From IMG/VR virus record IMGVR_UViG_3300032242_000550, positions 1 to 64,000 of that record: a DNA stretch of 64,000 bases; one strand, written 5' to 3'. The notes below the pieces were generated by a model. The model had not been told where the DNA came from and did no database searches. It saw only the letters and a list, made by a program, of their open reading frames with translations. Numbering within the stretch: the first letter of the stretch is position 1; each line of letters opens with the position of its first letter. A program made the position numbers and the translations under genes. Below, in pieces: positions 26,759 to 32,124 of this stretch. This DNA is from a virus.

Positions 26759-27637
26759 CTAGATTTTAGTACATAAAAACAGTTTTTCTGATATAATTTT
26801 GGCTAAAGGCATGCCAAAAGTCTTTGAACTAACAAAACTATCACTATCACTATTGTAATCAAGCCATGGACTAAAACCCAATACTAAATGTATTCTATCA
26901 TTTGGGTTATTGCAAGTTTTATTAATATTAACTCTATGTGGTATTCTAGTGTTCCATATATATGCTTTTCCAAGTTCAAGATGCACATCTTTTAGTGAAA
27001 GAGTATTACCATACTCATCTGAACCTTCAATATCTAATATATATTCTTCTGAAGTTTGTATAGGTATATTGATTCTAAATAAATGATTTGGGCTTTCATC
27101 TATATGCCAACCTGAATCTGTTGGAGTTTTCTCAAACATATTTAAATATGCAACTCTACTTCTTATTAATGGACAAGAAAATTTATTCAATAAAAAACCC
27201 AAATGTCTGTCTATTACAGGTAACACTTTTCTAAAACCATATGAATCATAATATGTGTTTTTTATATTTTGATGATTGCCCTTACCATTCTTAAATGCAA
27301 AAGATTGAGATAAAAATCTAGAACCAAACGTTTGATGATATATTGAAACATCACTATCAATATAGTCTGGGTTATATGTCAATGAAAAACCCTGATAAGA
27401 TTTAGATTCTTGTTCACCGGTCTTCCATGGCACAATACCTATCTCATTTTTTATACTATTTACAGCATTTAATATTTCAGTATGACTAGGCAAACCCAAT
27501 TCTTCTAAAGTATATTCATAGAAGTTATAATTTTCTAAACTGTTTTTATTGATTTCTTTACCAAATATACCTAGGTCTGTTAAGTAGCCGGCAGTGCTTT
27601 TGTTTTCTGGCACATCACTTAATTTAAGTTCAAACAT
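26759..27637 (-). CDS. 2OG-Fe(II) oxygenase-like protein (Asp/Asn beta-hydroxylase-like fold)
   Basis: RSRVAYL, WHID (HxD), RINIPIQT, WNTRIPHRV (distal His), RIHLVLG. Confidence 0.7.
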   Translation of the reverse strand: MFELKLSDVPENKSTAGYLTDLGIFGKEINKNSLENYNFYEYTLEELGLPSHTEILNAVNSIKNEIGIVPWKTGEQESKSYQGFSLTYNPDYIDSDVSIYHQTFGSRFLSQSFAFKNGKGNHQNIKNTYYDSYGFRKVLPVIDRHLGFLLNKFSCPLIRSRVAYLNMFEKTPTDSGWHIDESPNHLFRINIPIQTSEEYILDIEGSDEYGNTLSLKDVHLELGKAYIWNTRIPHRVNINKTCNNPNDRIHLVLGFSPWLDYNSDSDSFVSSKTFGMPLAKIISEKLFLCTKI

Positions 27638-27656
27638 AACGTTATTTAGTATTGGT

Positions 27657-27710
27657 AAAGGCTCCGTAGAGCCTTTATTGAGTAAAAAAATAGGGACCGA
27701 AGTCCCTATT
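27657..27710 (-). terminator. Tandem UNCG-tetraloop hairpins terminating the tmRNA
   Basis: Minus strand AATAGGGAC-TTCG-GTCCCTATT-TTTTT, then AAAGGCTC-TACG-GAGCCTTT. Confidence 0.85.
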
Positions 27711-27984
27711 GCTATTTTTGGTTACAAGGTATAACTACCTCGCTATCAGGCGTTTGCTGCCAATAGATATTGTGAATCGTTTGCGATTACTTTTTTTGCT
27801 TCTACGGCCGAGATACTCCCAACCCTAACGGCTTCTGCTTTGCCGAGCTGTCCACTCTGTTACTCTTTGCCCAATCGATCCTGTGTCATCCCCACCTAAA
27901 TATACATCATACACTTAGGTGGAGATGGCCGGCGCTGCCCCGGCGTCTTGAACTTATTTTACATCACTTCATACAGCAATAACT
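27711..27984 (-). ncRNA. ssrA: Circularly permuted (two-piece) tmRNA, alphaproteobacterial type; tag (A)ANDSQYLLAANA
   Basis: Minus strand order: T-arm GCCGG-GGCAGCG-CCGGC, acceptor 3' strand CATCTCC-ACC (27927-27918), self-complementary intervening segment, 5' strand GGGGATG (27893-27887; G3-U70 Ala identity), D-loop ACACAGGATCGA, tag ORF 27784-27746 with TGA TAG, and 3' pseudoknot GAGGT-A-GTTAT-ACCTT-GTAACCAAAA-ATAGC. The 5' end is approximate. Confidence 0.93.
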
Positions 27985-30900
27985 TCAATTGTATTTAGTA
28001 TTAAAATACTCTTTTAACCAAGGCCAATCATAACTTAGACGTAATTTGTCTAAATCACCATTGACTGATTCATAGTATTCTACAGCATCTATCGCACCAT
28101 TTATACTATATTGGGCGTAATCACCCTCACCCACAGTTGACCATATCTTTAATCGTTGTCTACTAACTTTACTATCTTCACAACGTAACTTAATAGCTTC
28201 ACGGAAACTAGTACGCCATGTGCTAAACTCATCAGTATTATACCTTGCCACACCACTATTCAACTCTACAACTTCATGTTCATTATCCAATGTAAAGTCT
28301 AACCCTTTACCCATATTGCTCAATGTAATCTGTCTGTTATAAGCAATCAAGGCTTGATGGCCGTATACCAAACCATTAACAGGATTACTTGCATAAAAGA
28401 TATAATGTTTAGGTATCTGTAATCTATCTGGTTGCCATGTCCAATCAAACTTACTGTTAACACGTAACTTAGCAAATACAGTAAACATCCATGAGGTACG
28501 GCTTGCATTTGCGGCAGCATGATAGGCAGCAACACGACCATTGACCCCATCAACACGAACAACACGATTCTTCAATCCTTTAGTTACATTCAATAAATGT
28601 TCATAGTTTTCATCGGCTCCAGTTTCACCATTACTTAGGAATACTATATCTAATGGCTTTGACTGTCCCATCTTAGTTGCTTTAGCTATATATGGATAAT
28701 CATACAACTCTTTTTCAACATAATCGTTAGCTTCTTTGGGTACAACAATACGTGTACCACCTACATTTGTAATCAATATGTTCTTTGATTCACTAGACCA
28801 CATGCTGATTGGTTCATCATTAATATCAGGAGCAATACAATTATCACTTGTTGTAAACACTGCATATGGGAAATTATATGTATGTTCTTTAAAGTTTAAA
28901 TGTGTATCTGCTTCTGTTACAAAACTAGGTGCAGATAAACGTTTTAGTTTCTGATGCTGATTAAAATTAATCTTCTCTATGTTCTCTAACTTATCCAAAT
29001 CTTCTACCAGAATACGTAACTTGTTTACATTAATAAAGAACGTGTCACCAAACTTCTGTTTATCACTAGGAAACACATGTAATTGTTCTAGTGAGAATGG
29101 ATCAACTATATAAGTAAAATCAAAATTACTGTAATCACAAATAGAACTACATACCCAAATATAATGATCTTTCTTAATACCCAACTCATATAGCATGTTT
29201 TTTAATGTGGTTAAGTAATCATTTTCATATTTGATTGTGTAAACGTTTTCACGTTTTGTTTTGTTTTCAATCAAGGAAACCATGTCAGTTAAACCATCGT
29301 TACCGTAATCAATTAGATATACATCATATAGGCAGTTACTAGCTATAGCACGTTTTGTTTTTACAAAGTTTAGATTGTTTAGATGTTCTATGACCTTTAC
29401 GTATTTTGTATCTTCTGCAAATGTTTCTTTATTAACCATAAACGTAGTACCCCAATGACTCCATTGTGTACCAAACACATGAACCATTGACATTTGCCAT
29501 GGGTTAGGATAATAGCTAAAATCAAATTTAGTATAATCTAATTCGCTGTTTAATATCCAACATAGTTCTGTTGTAGATTTGTTTATACAGCGATTGATAG
29601 TATCAACCCAACTGTTTAAGTATCTTGTCTTTTGTAGTGTAGGGAACTGTAATTTAAGTTGTTCAAATCGTACGGCAGATTCTTTATTACCCTTATCCAC
29701 AAAGAATGCATCTACTTGTTTAAACAGTTTAGATAGATATATTTCATCTAGTTTTGTATTTTCAATGAAGTTTATATCTCTATATCCTTCTTTATACATT
29801 TTTCCATTAACTAGATATGTTTGTGTTGTTTCACTTTCAGGGCTACCAAACGTATTAATATTGAATGCCTGTTCTTTAGTAGGCTTCCAATTAAAATCAA
29901 ACTTAGTATAATCAATATTTTTACGCAATGCCCAGAAGATTTCATCACTATGTTGTTCTATCAAACTATCTAATGTGGTTTCAATATAGTATTGAGGATA
30001 TTGTATTGCTTCAGAGGATAACAATATATTTTCTAATAATACAACAGTTCCATCATTGTTTGGAGTAACATATTTAGGACCATCTTGTAAATGAACATCT
30101 TCTAATAGTGTACCAAACTGATAGATATAAGGTGGGCTATGTATATCTGGATGCCAACTAAAATCAAATACGTTTTTATCAAACCCGGCTGGTATAATCC
30201 AATTGGTAAAATTTTGTTTAATTTTTGCTATAGGATAATCCATATATTTGATATCTGTTGCTCCATTTGCAACATATCTAGGACCACCTATCTTATCCCA
30301 TGTGCTAGGGAACTGATAGATATATGCAGGTTCGGTACTATCTGGATGCCAACTATAATCAAACTCTAGTATATTATCAGGTATATCCCAATTTGTTTTA
30401 TCAGAAACACGTGTTGCTTTAAGTATATCCATGTACTTAGTAGGTGTATCTGTTTTACAGTTTGGTGGAGTAAACGTTGGACCATCTGTTTTTTGCCATT
30501 GTGTACCAAATTGATATATTAGTGGTTCGTCATTTATATTTGGATGCCAGCTAAAATCAAACAGTGTGGTATCTAAGCCTGCAGGTACAGTCCAATATGT
30601 CATATCTTGTTTAACTTTTGCTGTTGGATAATCTATATATTTTACTTCAGTAGCACCTTCTACAGTAAATTTAGGTCCGCCTGTACGACTCCAAGTACTA
30701 GCAAATTGATAAATGTAGGGTGGTTCTGTATCATCTGGATGCCAACTAAAATCAAATGATGATTGTTCTACATTACCTGGGATCAACCAATTAGTAAATC
30801 TCCATGCTACCACACTTGCTTTAAGTGTATTAATGTATTTTATCTCTGTAGCACCGGGTACTACATATCTAGGTCCACCTGTTTTTTGATGTACGGTAGC

Positions 30901-32124
30901 AAATTGATATATGTAGGGTGGGTCATTAGGATTAGGTTCCCAACTGTAATCAAAACTATTTTGTACTACATATGATGGTATTTCCCAGTTATCCATACAG
31001 GGTTTACGTGTGGCACGTTCTTCCATGTATTTGTATTCAGTAGCACCTTCAACAACATATTGAATAGATATTTTATCTTCAGGTTTATTCCATTGATTAC
31101 CCCATGCATAGATATATGGAGGACTCCACGGATCGGGTACCCATGAATAATCTATACCATCACAGTTTTCTAAATGTGTAAATCGTGTACTATTAGGTAA
31201 TAATTTTGCTCTCAATGATTCATCTTCAATGAATTTATATTCAGTTGCACCCGGTACACGATATTCAACTGTTGGCATAATCTCTGCAAGATATTGAGTG
31301 TTGCCAAACATATATATAAATGCAGGCTCACGTGGATCTGGTCTCCAACTGAAATCAAATGAGTTTTTATCTATTGATTTTAATTCTGTCCATCTATCAT
31401 ACTCAGGTAATACTACAACTGAGTTGTCCATATACTTACGTTCAGTTGCACCAGGACAATGATATTCTAATGTAGGTTTTAACTCGGCACTGATATATTT
31501 GTTTCCCCATGTATAGATGTATGCAGGCTCACGTGGGTCAGGTCTCCAAGTAAAATCAAATGTATCTTTATCTACTGCTTGTATTTCTACCCACTTATCC
31601 CATTCAGGTAATAAATCTACTGAATCATTCATGTATTTTACATTAGTAGCACCTTCAACATGATATTCTACATAATGTTTAATTTCTGCTGGATAGAATT
31701 TACAACCCCACTTATATATGTAGGGTGGGTCATATGGGTTAGGTTCCCAACTGTAATCAAAACTTAACTCATTAATTTTGTCTAGTACTACCCAATTATC
31801 ATGTTTTATATTTTTTCTATGTAGTGGTTCAACATCAGCACGATAGATAATAATTTCACTATCTTGTGTTGAACATAACCATGTTCCACTATCTTTTTGA
31901 TATTGACTGGGCCATACGTTATTATGTTCACTAGTCCAAACTTCGTCATCGGGTAAGAAGTCAAAATCCCAATCCCAATCAAAGTTTGTATAGTCACAAT
32001 ATTCATTGATTATCCAAAAGTGTTCGGTGGTACATTGATTTCTAGCATGTGCCAAATCAATTGCATGTTTTTCTCTTGGGTGTGCGTTGGGTTTATTACC
32101 GTAATAAAATACATCTCTAAGCAT
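27985..32124 (-). CDS. Large repeat protein with degenerate GT-A-like glycosyltransferase modules
   Basis: 1379 aa; nine W/P/Y-rich ~65-aa repeats; C-terminal domain aligns by eye with 43824-44777 (RVDGV.G..AA..AA, N..NGL.YG, WR..FRE..K). Confidence 0.7.
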   Translation of the reverse strand: MLRDVFYYGNKPNAHPREKHAIDLAHARNQCTTEHFWIINEYCDYTNFDWDWDFDFLPDDEVWTSEHNNVWPSQYQKDSGTWLCSTQDSEIIIYRADVEPLHRKNIKHDNWVVLDKINELSFDYSWEPNPYDPPYIYKWGCKFYPAEIKHYVEYHVEGATNVKYMNDSVDLLPEWDKWVEIQAVDKDTFDFTWRPDPREPAYIYTWGNKYISAELKPTLEYHCPGATERKYMDNSVVVLPEYDRWTELKSIDKNSFDFSWRPDPREPAFIYMFGNTQYLAEIMPTVEYRVPGATEYKFIEDESLRAKLLPNSTRFTHLENCDGIDYSWVPDPWSPPYIYAWGNQWNKPEDKISIQYVVEGATEYKYMEERATRKPCMDNWEIPSYVVQNSFDYSWEPNPNDPPYIYQFATVHQKTGGPRYVVPGATEIKYINTLKASVVAWRFTNWLIPGNVEQSSFDFSWHPDDTEPPYIYQFASTWSRTGGPKFTVEGATEVKYIDYPTAKVKQDMTYWTVPAGLDTTLFDFSWHPNINDEPLIYQFGTQWQKTDGPTFTPPNCKTDTPTKYMDILKATRVSDKTNWDIPDNILEFDYSWHPDSTEPAYIYQFPSTWDKIGGPRYVANGATDIKYMDYPIAKIKQNFTNWIIPAGFDKNVFDFSWHPDIHSPPYIYQFGTLLEDVHLQDGPKYVTPNNDGTVVLLENILLSSEAIQYPQYYIETTLDSLIEQHSDEIFWALRKNIDYTKFDFNWKPTKEQAFNINTFGSPESETTQTYLVNGKMYKEGYRDINFIENTKLDEIYLSKLFKQVDAFFVDKGNKESAVRFEQLKLQFPTLQKTRYLNSWVDTINRCINKSTTELCWILNSELDYTKFDFSYYPNPWQMSMVHVFGTQWSHWGTTFMVNKETFAEDTKYVKVIEHLNNLNFVKTKRAIASNCLYDVYLIDYGNDGLTDMVSLIENKTKRENVYTIKYENDYLTTLKNMLYELGIKKDHYIWVCSSICDYSNFDFTYIVDPFSLEQLHVFPSDKQKFGDTFFINVNKLRILVEDLDKLENIEKINFNQHQKLKRLSAPSFVTEADTHLNFKEHTYNFPYAVFTTSDNCIAPDINDEPISMWSSESKNILITNVGGTRIVVPKEANDYVEKELYDYPYIAKATKMGQSKPLDIVFLSNGETGADENYEHLLNVTKGLKNRVVRVDGVNGRVAAYHAAANASRTSWMFTVFAKLRVNSKFDWTWQPDRLQIPKHYIFYASNPVNGLVYGHQALIAYNRQITLSNMGKGLDFTLDNEHEVVELNSGVARYNTDEFSTWRTSFREAIKLRCEDSKVSRQRLKIWSTVGEGDYAQYSINGAIDAVEYYESVNGDLDKLRLSYDWPWLKEYFNTKYN
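30055..31800 (-). repeat. Nine ~65-aa intragenic repeats D[FY][ST]WxP...P[PA]YIY...Y...GATExKY
   Basis: Counted directly in the translation. Confidence 0.9.

What the first reader, a model, noticed from the sequence alone, without database searches (positions are those of the whole stretch)
27711..27998. Phage-encoded circularly permuted (two-piece) tmRNA with alphaproteobacterial signatures
Seen: the acceptor half lies upstream of the coding half, joined by a hairpin intervening segment (CACCTAA...TTAGGTG). The acceptor stem GGGGATG/CATCTCC has G3-U70, the T-loop is GGCAGCG, and the terminal pseudoknot loop holds AACCAAA. It has its own late-type box (27992-27998) and a UUCG terminator. Established: alphaproteobacterial tmRNAs are permuted and carry GGCRGUA T-loops and an AACAGAA loop. 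Phage tmRNAs are known, but a permuted one is easily missed. The gene encodes only ACC, so CCA must be completed by a nucleotidyltransferase.
Basis: partly seen in the sequence, partly recalled or inferred. Interest (0 to 1): 0.85.

Follow-up and report, generated by a model that had tools for sequence, protein, structure and literature searches.

The report
Two-piece tmRNA gene in lake phage
An uncultured giant T4-like phage carries a complete, back-to-front ("two-piece") gene for tmRNA, the RNA that frees stalled ribosomes; such phage genes are already published, so this is a well-supported but ordinary new member, belonging to a virus-only branch that looks mostly betaproteobacterial rather than alphaproteobacterial.

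Summary
On the minus strand, about 28017 to 27684, lies a complete circularly permuted tmRNA gene. Rfam scores: tmRNA_permuted 92.1 bits (cut-off 47) and beta_tmRNA 84.5 (cut-off 84).

The contig is a T4-like phage fragment of 155 kb (gp23 present). It has no tRNA, SmpB or CCA-enzyme gene.

The "alphaproteobacterial" label is only partly right. The alpha model matches only the tRNA-like core. Full length, spacer, 3' loop and all close relatives score as beta type.

The gene belongs to a virus-only branch: at least 70 distinct IMG/VR sequences share an almost invariant spacer. In that branch the alpha-like T-loop GGCAG sits beside canonical T-loops.

24 of 42 predicted pairs show compensatory changes. 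The tag ANDSQYLLAANA ends in ANA, not LAA. Two other contigs carry the same ending, with only synonymous differences over it.

Phage two-piece tmRNAs are published (Melnitz, pelagimyophages), and tmRNAs are reported from huge phages. This scan has already reported look-alikes on other DNA.

Verdict: new member of a known kind, low interest.

The parts
27988..28017 (-). Promoter region. Weak sigma-70-like TTAAAA (28017-28012), 18-nt spacer, TACAAT (27993-27988). It overlaps the CTAAATA late-type box at 27998-27992 and lies inside the 3' end of the 1379-aa ORF.
   Evidence: Promoter scan and coordinates. Of 77 relatives, 23 have TTGACN-N16-18-TANNNT here and 11 have a [CT]TAAATA box. CTAAATA is enriched upstream of ORFs in this genome.
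27918..27977 (-). Acceptor piece: P2 5' strand GCUGU (27977-27973); T-arm 27944-27928 with T-loop GGCAGCG (27939-27933); acceptor 3' strand CAUCUCC (27927-27921); discriminator A plus CC (27920-27918). The final A is not encoded.
   Evidence: cmscan alignment, ARAGORN -ps80, coordinates, compensatory changes in P2, P2a and the T-stem.
27894..27917 (-). Intervening segment UAAGUGUAUGAUGUAUAUUUAGGU. It pairs with itself and with ACC, prolonging the acceptor helix in the precursor, and is presumably removed.
   Evidence: RNAalifold pairs at columns 66-76/101-111. Nearly invariant in 15 relatives. The same type was found in 109 viral stretches.
27846..27893 (-). Start of the coding piece: acceptor 5' strand GGGGAUG (27893-27887, G3 = 27891); D-loop analogue ACACAGGAUCGAUU (27886-27873); P2a and P2 3' strands (ACAGC 27851-27847).
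27806..27845 (-). Two hairpins where pseudoknot 1 is expected: CGGC/GCCG (27845-27829) and GGUUGGG/CUCGGCC (27824-27806). The second is an insertion relative to the short form and to bacterial beta-type genes.
   Evidence: Alifold of 8 long-form relatives, with compensatory changes: CGGG/CCCG in L013; G-C versus A-U and U.G versus C-G in hairpin 2.
27743..27784 (-). Tag reading frame: resume codon GCA (27784-27782), 12 codons for ANDSQYLLAANA (to 27749), then UGA UAG (27748-27743).
   Evidence: ARAGORN. The same ...LLAANA** ending occurs in L013 and L302. Window versus L013 over the last six codons: only synonymous changes, plus a stop-to-stop change.
27711..27740 (-). 3' element: stem AGGU(A)/(U)ACCU (27740-27727). 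Proposed second stem GUUA (27735-27732) with UAGC (27714-27711). Crossing loop UGUAACCAAAAA, which holds the AACCAAA motif.
   Evidence: The first stem is predicted with covariation (columns 273-276/289-292). The second stem was read by eye. It is matched by the beta_tmRNA hairpin and by L013, L040 and L249. It is ambiguous in other relatives.
27684..27710 (-). Intrinsic terminator AAUAGGGAC-UUCG-GUCCCUAUU followed by U7.
   Evidence: Terminator scan. An equivalent UUCG hairpin is present in most relatives.

Best explanation
This is a functional two-piece (circularly permuted) tmRNA gene carried by an uncultured T4-like jumbo phage. It belongs to a virus-only branch whose overall architecture is that of the betaproteobacterial two-piece tmRNA.

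Proposed mechanism:
1. One precursor of about 300 nt is transcribed from the promoter at about 28017-27988 and ends at the terminator at 27710-27684.
2. The acceptor stem forms between the two halves. The 24-nt spacer prolongs it into a long hairpin.
3. Host RNase P cuts before G27893. Host 3' processing trims to ...ACC (27918). The host CCA-adding enzyme adds the last A.
4. The two RNAs stay paired through P2.
5. Host alanyl-tRNA synthetase charges the RNA through G3.U70 and A73.
6. With host SmpB and EF-Tu it enters stalled ribosomes. Translation resumes at GCA 27784 and adds ANDSQYLLAANA.

The likely benefit is more ribosome-rescue capacity during infection, when host mRNA decay leaves many non-stop messages.

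Shown here: the sequence and structure features, their conservation and covariation, and the phage context. Inferred: transcription, processing into two RNAs, charging, tagging and the benefit to the phage.
For: - Model scores: tmRNA_permuted 92.1 bits against cut-off 47, over the full model; beta_tmRNA 84.5 against 84, over the full model.
- ARAGORN at -ps80 calls a permuted tmRNA with a resume consensus and a tag frame.
- 24 of 42 consensus pairs keep pairing through changes on both sides, and G3.U70 is invariant in 17 of 17 sequences.
- 109 viral stretches share the spacer type, giving 70 distinct full-length genes with intact tag frames.
- Relatives score 92-161 bits as beta_tmRNA.
- The spacer signature ACC-UAAG...UUUAG-U-GGGG and the loop CCUUGUnACCAAA are shared with a bacterial beta-type gene, L249.
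- T4-like capsid gene gp23 is on the same contig, 329 bits.
- The upstream 1379-aa gene is syntenic in the three closest relatives.
- Published precedents: PMC9004378, PMC7162821, PMC11915505.
Against: - The beta_tmRNA score is only just at its cut-off.
- The T-loop (GGCAGCG) is non-canonical for the beta type.
- The pseudoknot-1 hairpin with its AGGCGA loop is replaced by two other hairpins.
- The middle of P2 pairs poorly under the Rfam model.
- The tag ends in ANA rather than the LAA that most relatives keep, so the degradation signal may differ.
- There is no expression or processing data, and the host is unknown.
Confidence: 0.82

Rival explanations
1. One reading: an alphaproteobacterial-type two-piece tmRNA, taken from or tuned to an alphaproteobacterial host (for example a freshwater SAR11 relative), as was argued for phage Melnitz.
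For: - On the tRNA-like core alone, alpha_tmRNA is the best model in its clan, 51.7-54.9 bits against cut-off 50.
- T-loop GGCAGCG matches the alpha consensus GGCgGUA in 5 of 7 positions.
- D-loop AGGAUCGA matches the alpha consensus.
Against: - The alpha match covers only model positions 73-180. True alpha-type genes match positions 1-355 at 80-109 bits.
- The full length and all close relatives score as beta.
- Within the same spacer-defined branch, 42 of 70 genes have canonical T-loops. The AUCGAUUG D-loop goes with both T-loop types (26 canonical, 21 GGCAG). This suggests the GGCAG loop arose inside the branch.
- AACAGAA also occurs in a bacterial beta-type gene.
- CCA is encoded in the alpha consensus but not here.
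Confidence: 0.1
2. A mosaic gene: a beta-type body that acquired an alpha-type tRNA-like core by recombination between phages of different hosts. In a permuted gene the core is one contiguous block.
For: - Different Rfam models win on the core and on the whole gene.
- Modules do seem to reassort. The ...LLAANA tag region occurs with three different T-loop types: window GGCAGCG, L013 UUCGAAU, L302 CUUCGAAG.
Against: - Outside the T-loop and D-loop the core is not alpha-like. It reads GUUCAAGAC, against beta GUUCUGGAC and alpha gcauCGGAC.
- The P2a pairs CAA/UUG match neither type.
- The spacer inside the supposed imported block is the beta/virus type.
- Intermediate forms exist in the branch.
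Confidence: 0.06
3. Not a working rescue RNA. It could be a decaying passenger picked up from a host, or an SmpB-titrating decoy like the tRNA-like-domain-only RNA of mycobacteriophage DS6A (PMC4131195).
For: - No SmpB gene in the 155 kb held.
- The beta model score is marginal.
- The tag end and T-loop are unusual.
Against: - The gene is complete and has its own promoter and terminator.
- Covariation supports all core helices.
- The tag frame is intact in about 70 relatives.
- Between the window and L013, the last six tag codons differ only by synonymous changes, and UGA is replaced by UAA.
- The contig is only about 45% complete, so absence of SmpB is weak evidence.
Confidence: 0.05

Closest known systems
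Two-piece tmRNA (ssrA) of Methylophilales phage Melnitz, pelagimyophages and other aquatic phages (Buchholz et al. 2022, PMC9004378)
   Same: A T4-like aquatic myophage carries a complete, circularly permuted ssrA with no smpB, and so depends on host factors. That paper counts 53 two-piece types among isolate phage genomes, 50 of them aquatic.
   Different: The authors place the Melnitz gene with alphaproteobacterial sequences and link it to a glutamine riboswitch. Here the gene is beta-type overall, and no riboswitch or other Rfam family lies beside it. blastn finds no full-length relative in 50,697 GenBank phage records.
Betaproteobacterial two-piece tmRNA, Rfam RF01850 (the lineage of Sharkady and Williams 2004, as cited in PMC9004378 and PMC11915505)
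   Same: Permuted order; P2 layout; spacer signature ACC-(U/C)AAG...UUUAG-U-GGGG; CCA not fully encoded in 2 of the 3 bacterial examples; 3' loop CCUUGUnACCAAA; AND... tag start; terminator hairpin directly after.
   Different: Only 47-52% identical to the three bacterial examples. T-loop GGCAGCG instead of UUCGAUU. D-loop AGGAUCGAUU instead of UGGUUUCGACA. Two hairpins replace the AGGCGA-loop hairpin. The tag ends in ANA. It sits on a virus.
Alphaproteobacterial two-piece tmRNA, Rfam RF01849 (Keiler, Shapiro and Williams 2000, as cited in PMC9004378)
   Same: Permuted order; T-loop of the GGCRG type; D-loop AGGAUCGA; related 3' motif ACCU..AAC.(A/C)AA.
   Different: No full-length model match; different spacer; CCA not encoded; P2 and the pseudoknot-1 region are not alpha-like.
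One-piece tmRNAs of mycobacteriophages (Bxz1 group) and Bacillus phage G, and tmRNA plus SmpB of huge phages (PMC4131195, PMC7162821)
   Same: Phage-borne ribosome-rescue RNA.
   Different: Those in PMC4131195 are listed without mention of permutation. Some huge phages also encode SmpB, and none is found on this contig.

Membership tests
Permuted (two-piece) tmRNA, Rfam RF04321 | Covariance-model score above the gathering cut-off over the whole model | tested here: met
   92.1 bits against 47, model positions 1-213, E 1.8e-16.
Permuted (two-piece) tmRNA, Rfam RF04321 | Gene order: 3' tRNA-like half (T-arm, acceptor 3' strand, ACC) upstream of the 5' half (acceptor 5' strand, D-loop, tag frame) | tested here: met
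Permuted (two-piece) tmRNA, Rfam RF04321 | Alanine identity: G3.U70 pair and discriminator A73 | tested here: met
   G27891.U27923 and A27920. The pair is U.G in 17 of 17 aligned sequences.
Permuted (two-piece) tmRNA, Rfam RF04321 | Resume codon and short tag frame ending in stop codon(s) | tested here: met
   GCA at 27784, 12 codons, then UGA UAG. The ending ANA is atypical but recurs in L013 and L302.
Permuted (two-piece) tmRNA, Rfam RF04321 | Helices supported by covariation in relatives | tested here: met
   24 of 42 pairs have compensatory changes.
Permuted (two-piece) tmRNA, Rfam RF04321 | Precursor is cut into two RNAs; the RNA is alanylated and tags proteins | not testable with these tools
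   Needs RNA ends and a tagging assay.
Permuted (two-piece) tmRNA, Rfam RF04321 | Dedicated partner SmpB available | tested here: not met
   No PF01668 match in the 155-kb contig. The contig is about 45% complete, and the host is expected to supply SmpB.
beta_tmRNA, Rfam RF01850 | Full-length model match above the cut-off | tested here: met
   84.5 against 84, marginal. Relatives score 92-161 bits.
beta_tmRNA, Rfam RF01850 | Conserved spacer ends and 3' loop CCUUGuuACcaAA | tested here: met
beta_tmRNA, Rfam RF01850 | Canonical T-loop UUCGAUU and D-loop UGGUUUCGACA | tested here: not met
   GGCAGCG and CAGGAUCGAUU.
beta_tmRNA, Rfam RF01850 | Resides in a betaproteobacterial genome | tested here: not met
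   It sits on a T4-like phage contig. In a sample of 151 genomes of one betaproteobacterial order, only 3 carry the family.
alpha_tmRNA, Rfam RF01849 | Full-length model match | tested here: not met
   Only model positions 73-180, 51.7-54.9 bits. True alpha-type genes match positions 1-355.
alpha_tmRNA, Rfam RF01849 | T-loop GGCRGUA | tested here: inconclusive
   GGCAGCG matches 5 of 7 positions. The same loop type occurs in 22 of 70 members of a branch that is otherwise beta-like.
alpha_tmRNA, Rfam RF01849 | 3' motif GGCAACAGAA | tested here: not met
   The window has GUAACCAAAA. The motif is also not alpha-specific (L251).

The most novel reading that the evidence does not exclude
The virus-only branch has independently evolved the alphaproteobacterial T-loop/D-loop pair inside a beta-type scaffold. 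In a sub-lineage (window, L013, L302) it has also replaced the universal LAA degron end by ...LLAANA. On this reading these phages rescue ribosomes while changing the fate of the tagged proteins, for example by weakening or redirecting ClpXP-type degradation. In the window's lineage expression would also have moved from an early sigma-70 promoter to a late-type promoter.
Probability: 0.15. Interest if true: 0.5.

Novelty: new member of a known kind. Interest (0 to 1): 0.25.

Why it matters
It adds one more case showing that large aquatic phages bring their own ribosome-rescue RNA.

Three practical points follow:
- ARAGORN at default settings misses this gene and 31 of 70 relatives, so phage tmRNA counts made with it are too low.
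- Calling the subtype from the T-loop alone misleads. The gene looks alpha-like only in its tRNA-like core, so tmRNA type should be used with care when predicting hosts.
- The recurring ANA tag end and the nearly invariant spacer are small, testable oddities.

None of this changes the known picture of trans-translation.

Tried and rejected
- ARAGORN at default settings, on the window and on the whole contig: nothing found. This is a sensitivity problem, not evidence against the gene.
- blastn against GenBank phages with the window gene: no match. With the more typical relative L076, only 21-31% partial matches appeared, to tRNA-like cores of Stenotrophomonas, Acinetobacter and Xanthomonas phages. 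No cultured relative was found, so there is no host clue.
Uninformative.
- Using a betaproteobacterial genome as centre, 151 genomes of its order gave only three true beta-type genes. These served as comparators. Names are withheld, so no host could be inferred.
- An internal promoter in the spacer that would start the coding piece at G1: TATATT lies 5 nt before G1, but there is no -35 and no proper extended -10. Dropped as unsupported.
- Weak alpha_tmRNA echoes at 65 kb and 135 kb of the contig: no Rfam family at E <= 0.01. Noise.
- A full-length covariance model of my own was not built.
Full report
**What is there**

Reading the minus strand of 27400-28300 gives, in order:
- a promoter region;
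- a 5' strand GCUGU (27977-27973);
- a T-arm GCCGG-GGCAGCG-CCGGC (27944-27928);
- the acceptor 3' strand CAUCUCC (27927-27921);
- A-C-C (27920-27918);
- a 24-nt spacer (27917-27894);
- the acceptor 5' strand GGGGAUG (27893-27887);
- a D-loop analogue;
- the return strands of P2 (ACAGC 27851-27847);
- two hairpins;
- the frame GCA...GCC UGA UAG (27784-27743);
- a small 3' stem with the loop CCUUGUAACCAAAA;
- a UUCG-loop terminator followed by seven U (27710-27684).

**Is it more than chance**

Rfam 15 gives two matches above their cut-offs on the minus strand:
- tmRNA_permuted (RF04321), 92.1 bits against 47, full model, E 1.8e-16;
- beta_tmRNA (RF01850), 84.5 bits against 84, full model, 28018-27687.

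ARAGORN finds nothing at default settings, either in the window or in the whole contig. With -ps80 it reports a permuted tmRNA with resume consensus and tag ANDSQYLLAANA**.

**Context**

- The window is the first 64 kb of a 155,159-bp IMG/VR virus record, estimated 45% complete.
- A T4-type major capsid gene gp23 is present, 329 bits.
- PHROG matches near the gene are phage-like.
- The contig has no tRNA gene, no SmpB and no CCA-adding enzyme of the PF01743 type.
- The tmRNA would therefore depend on host factors, with the caveat that half the genome is missing.
- Upstream lies a 1379-aa ORF ending at 27985, so the promoter sits in its 3' end. This neighbour is conserved at 70-80% amino-acid identity in the three closest relatives. 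The downstream genes are not conserved.

**Relatives**

- A pattern made of the acceptor stem with a short spacer hit 120 or more viral stretches. About 75 of them are permuted tmRNA genes by ARAGORN at -ps80.
- A pattern made only of the spacer type (CTCCACC-TAARTRTA...TATTTAGGT-GGGG) found 109 viral stretches. These gave 80 distinct sequences, 70 of them full-length, on contigs of up to 340 kb.
- The closest are L088 (82% identity), L049 (80%) and L013 (78%).
- No GenBank phage has a full-length relative.
- ARAGORN at default settings detects only 39 of the 70.

**Structure**

RNAalifold was run on the window, 13 viral relatives and 3 bacterial beta-type genes. It predicts P2, P2a, the T-stem, the 7-bp acceptor stem and an 11-bp prolongation of that stem through ACC and the spacer.
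- 24 of 42 pairs keep pairing through changes on both sides.
- G3.U70 is invariant.

The region where pseudoknot 1 is expected comes in two forms:
- a short form with one hairpin and a conserved AGGCGA loop, as in the bacterial genes;
- a long form, which includes the window, with two hairpins, both supported by compensatory changes.

The 3' element has a stem supported by covariation. A second stem (GUUA with UAGC) would make a small pseudoknot with the AACCAAA motif in the crossing loop. I read that stem by eye. It fits the window, L013, L040 and bacterial L249, but is ambiguous in others.

**Which lineage**

The alpha_tmRNA model matches only the tRNA-like core: model positions 73-180, 54.9 bits. 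On that core alone it beats the other clan members, at 51.7 bits.

This is because the T-loop GGCAGCG and the D-loop AGGAUCGA resemble the alpha consensus GGCgGUA and AGGAUCGAC.

Everything else points to the beta type:
- The full-length winner is beta_tmRNA.
- The close relatives score 92-161 bits as beta. By contrast, genuine alpha-type genes on viral contigs (L047, L057, L070) match alpha_tmRNA end to end at 80-109 bits.
- The spacer ends ACC-UAAG...UUUAG-U-GGGG recur in a bacterial beta-type gene (L249) and in the beta consensus.
- The window's CCUUGUAACCAAAA matches the beta consensus CCUUGuuACcaAA.
- The AACAGAA motif that most relatives carry also occurs in a bacterial beta-type gene (L251), so it is not alpha-specific.
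- The final A of CCA is also missing in two of the three bacterial beta examples.

Inside the spacer-defined branch, 22 of 70 genes have GGCAG-type T-loops and 42 have canonical UUCRA loops. The AUCGAUUG D-loop accompanies both types (21 and 26 cases).

The simplest reading is that the alpha-like T-loop arose within a beta-derived, virus-only branch. Recombination with an alpha-type gene is not excluded, but it has no specific support. Outside the two loops the core is not alpha-like.

The window is only 47-52% identical to the three bacterial beta genes. Only 3 of 151 sampled genomes of that bacterial order carry the family.

**Promoter**

- Of 77 distinct upstream regions, 23 have a clear TTGACN-N16-18-TANNNT promoter. 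This is also what the 5' end of the Rfam beta model captures.
- Eleven, including the window, L088 and L049, instead have a [CT]TAAATA box a few bases before the RNA start.
- The window retains a weak TTAAAA-N18-TACAAT that overlaps the box.
- In this genome CTAAATA lies within 60 nt upstream of long ORFs 11 times out of 41, against 1.1 expected. One case is 27649, just before the next gene.

Timing of expression cannot be decided from sequence.

**Tag**

Most of the branch ends in LAA (43 of 70). Three genes end in ANA: the window with ANDSQYLLAANA, and L013 and L302 with ANDDTFLLAANA.

Between the window and L013 the last six codons differ only by two synonymous changes. The first stop differs as UGA against UAA, and the second stop UAG is kept.

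So the two-codon extension appears to be read and maintained. Whether ANA weakens recognition by ClpXP-type proteases is an inference from what is known of the E. coli tag, not a result.

**Comparison with what is known**

- Phage two-piece tmRNAs are described for the OM43 myophage Melnitz and for pelagimyophages. In that study, 53 two-piece types were found among isolate phage genomes, mostly aquatic (PMC9004378).
- tmRNA and SmpB genes are reported in huge phages (PMC7162821).
- The tmRNA database lists 79 bacteriophage sequences (PMC11915505).
- Earlier reports of this scan on other genomes describe look-alike genes and reach the same verdict. One of them notes a virus-only branch that mixes two bacterial types and is missed by ARAGORN. 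I reached this independently and then found that it agrees.

**Verdict**

This is a real, complete, probably functional phage tmRNA gene and a new member of a known kind. The subtype label should be corrected from alpha to a beta-like, virus-only branch with an alpha-like T-loop. Interest is low. The small open points are the ANA tag end, the invariant spacer and the promoter type.

Noticed in passing
L010, L075, L282, L297, L315, L316, L331, L334, L340, L349, L361, L362 (tag frames of viral tmRNA genes): At least a dozen viral two-piece tmRNA genes of the same spacer-defined branch encode a long conserved tag of about 27-33 aa...(T)GEVTVSGKNVKFSAR...(L/F)AV, in place of the usual 10-aa tag. 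Other long tags also recur, for example ANDDSFDFAALSFTGNTVGGRVALAA and AKTSTFEYFQVPFTVSAMNDEGFELAA.
   Followed up: no
window 27896-27902 (+ strand), inside the tmRNA spacer: The reverse complement of the nearly invariant spacer reads CCTAAATATAC. This is a copy of the CTAAATA late-type box pointing the other way. It is conserved in all branch members because the spacer is. Whether it drives antisense transcription is unknown.
   Followed up: partly
window 27649-27643 (-) and 27676-27657 (-): After the tmRNA terminator come a second hairpin (AAAGGCUC-UACG-GAGCCUUU, no U-tract) and another ATACTAAATA box 5 nt before the ATG of the 292-aa ORF (26759-27637). The 11-nt string AATACTAAATA is shared with the box in front of the tmRNA gene.
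   Followed up: partly
whole contig G000: CTAAATA is under-represented overall (41 seen, about 60 expected from composition). It is about ten-fold enriched within 60 nt upstream of long ORFs (11 against 1.1 expected), which fits a late-promoter motif that differs from T4's TATAAATA.
   Followed up: partly
window 27985-32124 (-): The 1379-aa ORF directly upstream has no PHROG match. It is conserved next to the tmRNA gene in L123, L088 and L049 and contains internal repeats: several self-similar tblastn segments at 24-36% identity.
   Followed up: no
GenBank phage records H1-H18 (for example Stenotrophomonas phages Moby, Mendera, IME-SM1): The tRNA-like core of the relative L076 matches a site in about 160-kb Stenotrophomonas phages. 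That site is annotated as tmRNA in only 4 of 16 of those records, as 'tRNA-OTHER' in 2, and not at all in the rest. It looks like an under-annotated phage tmRNA.
   Followed up: no
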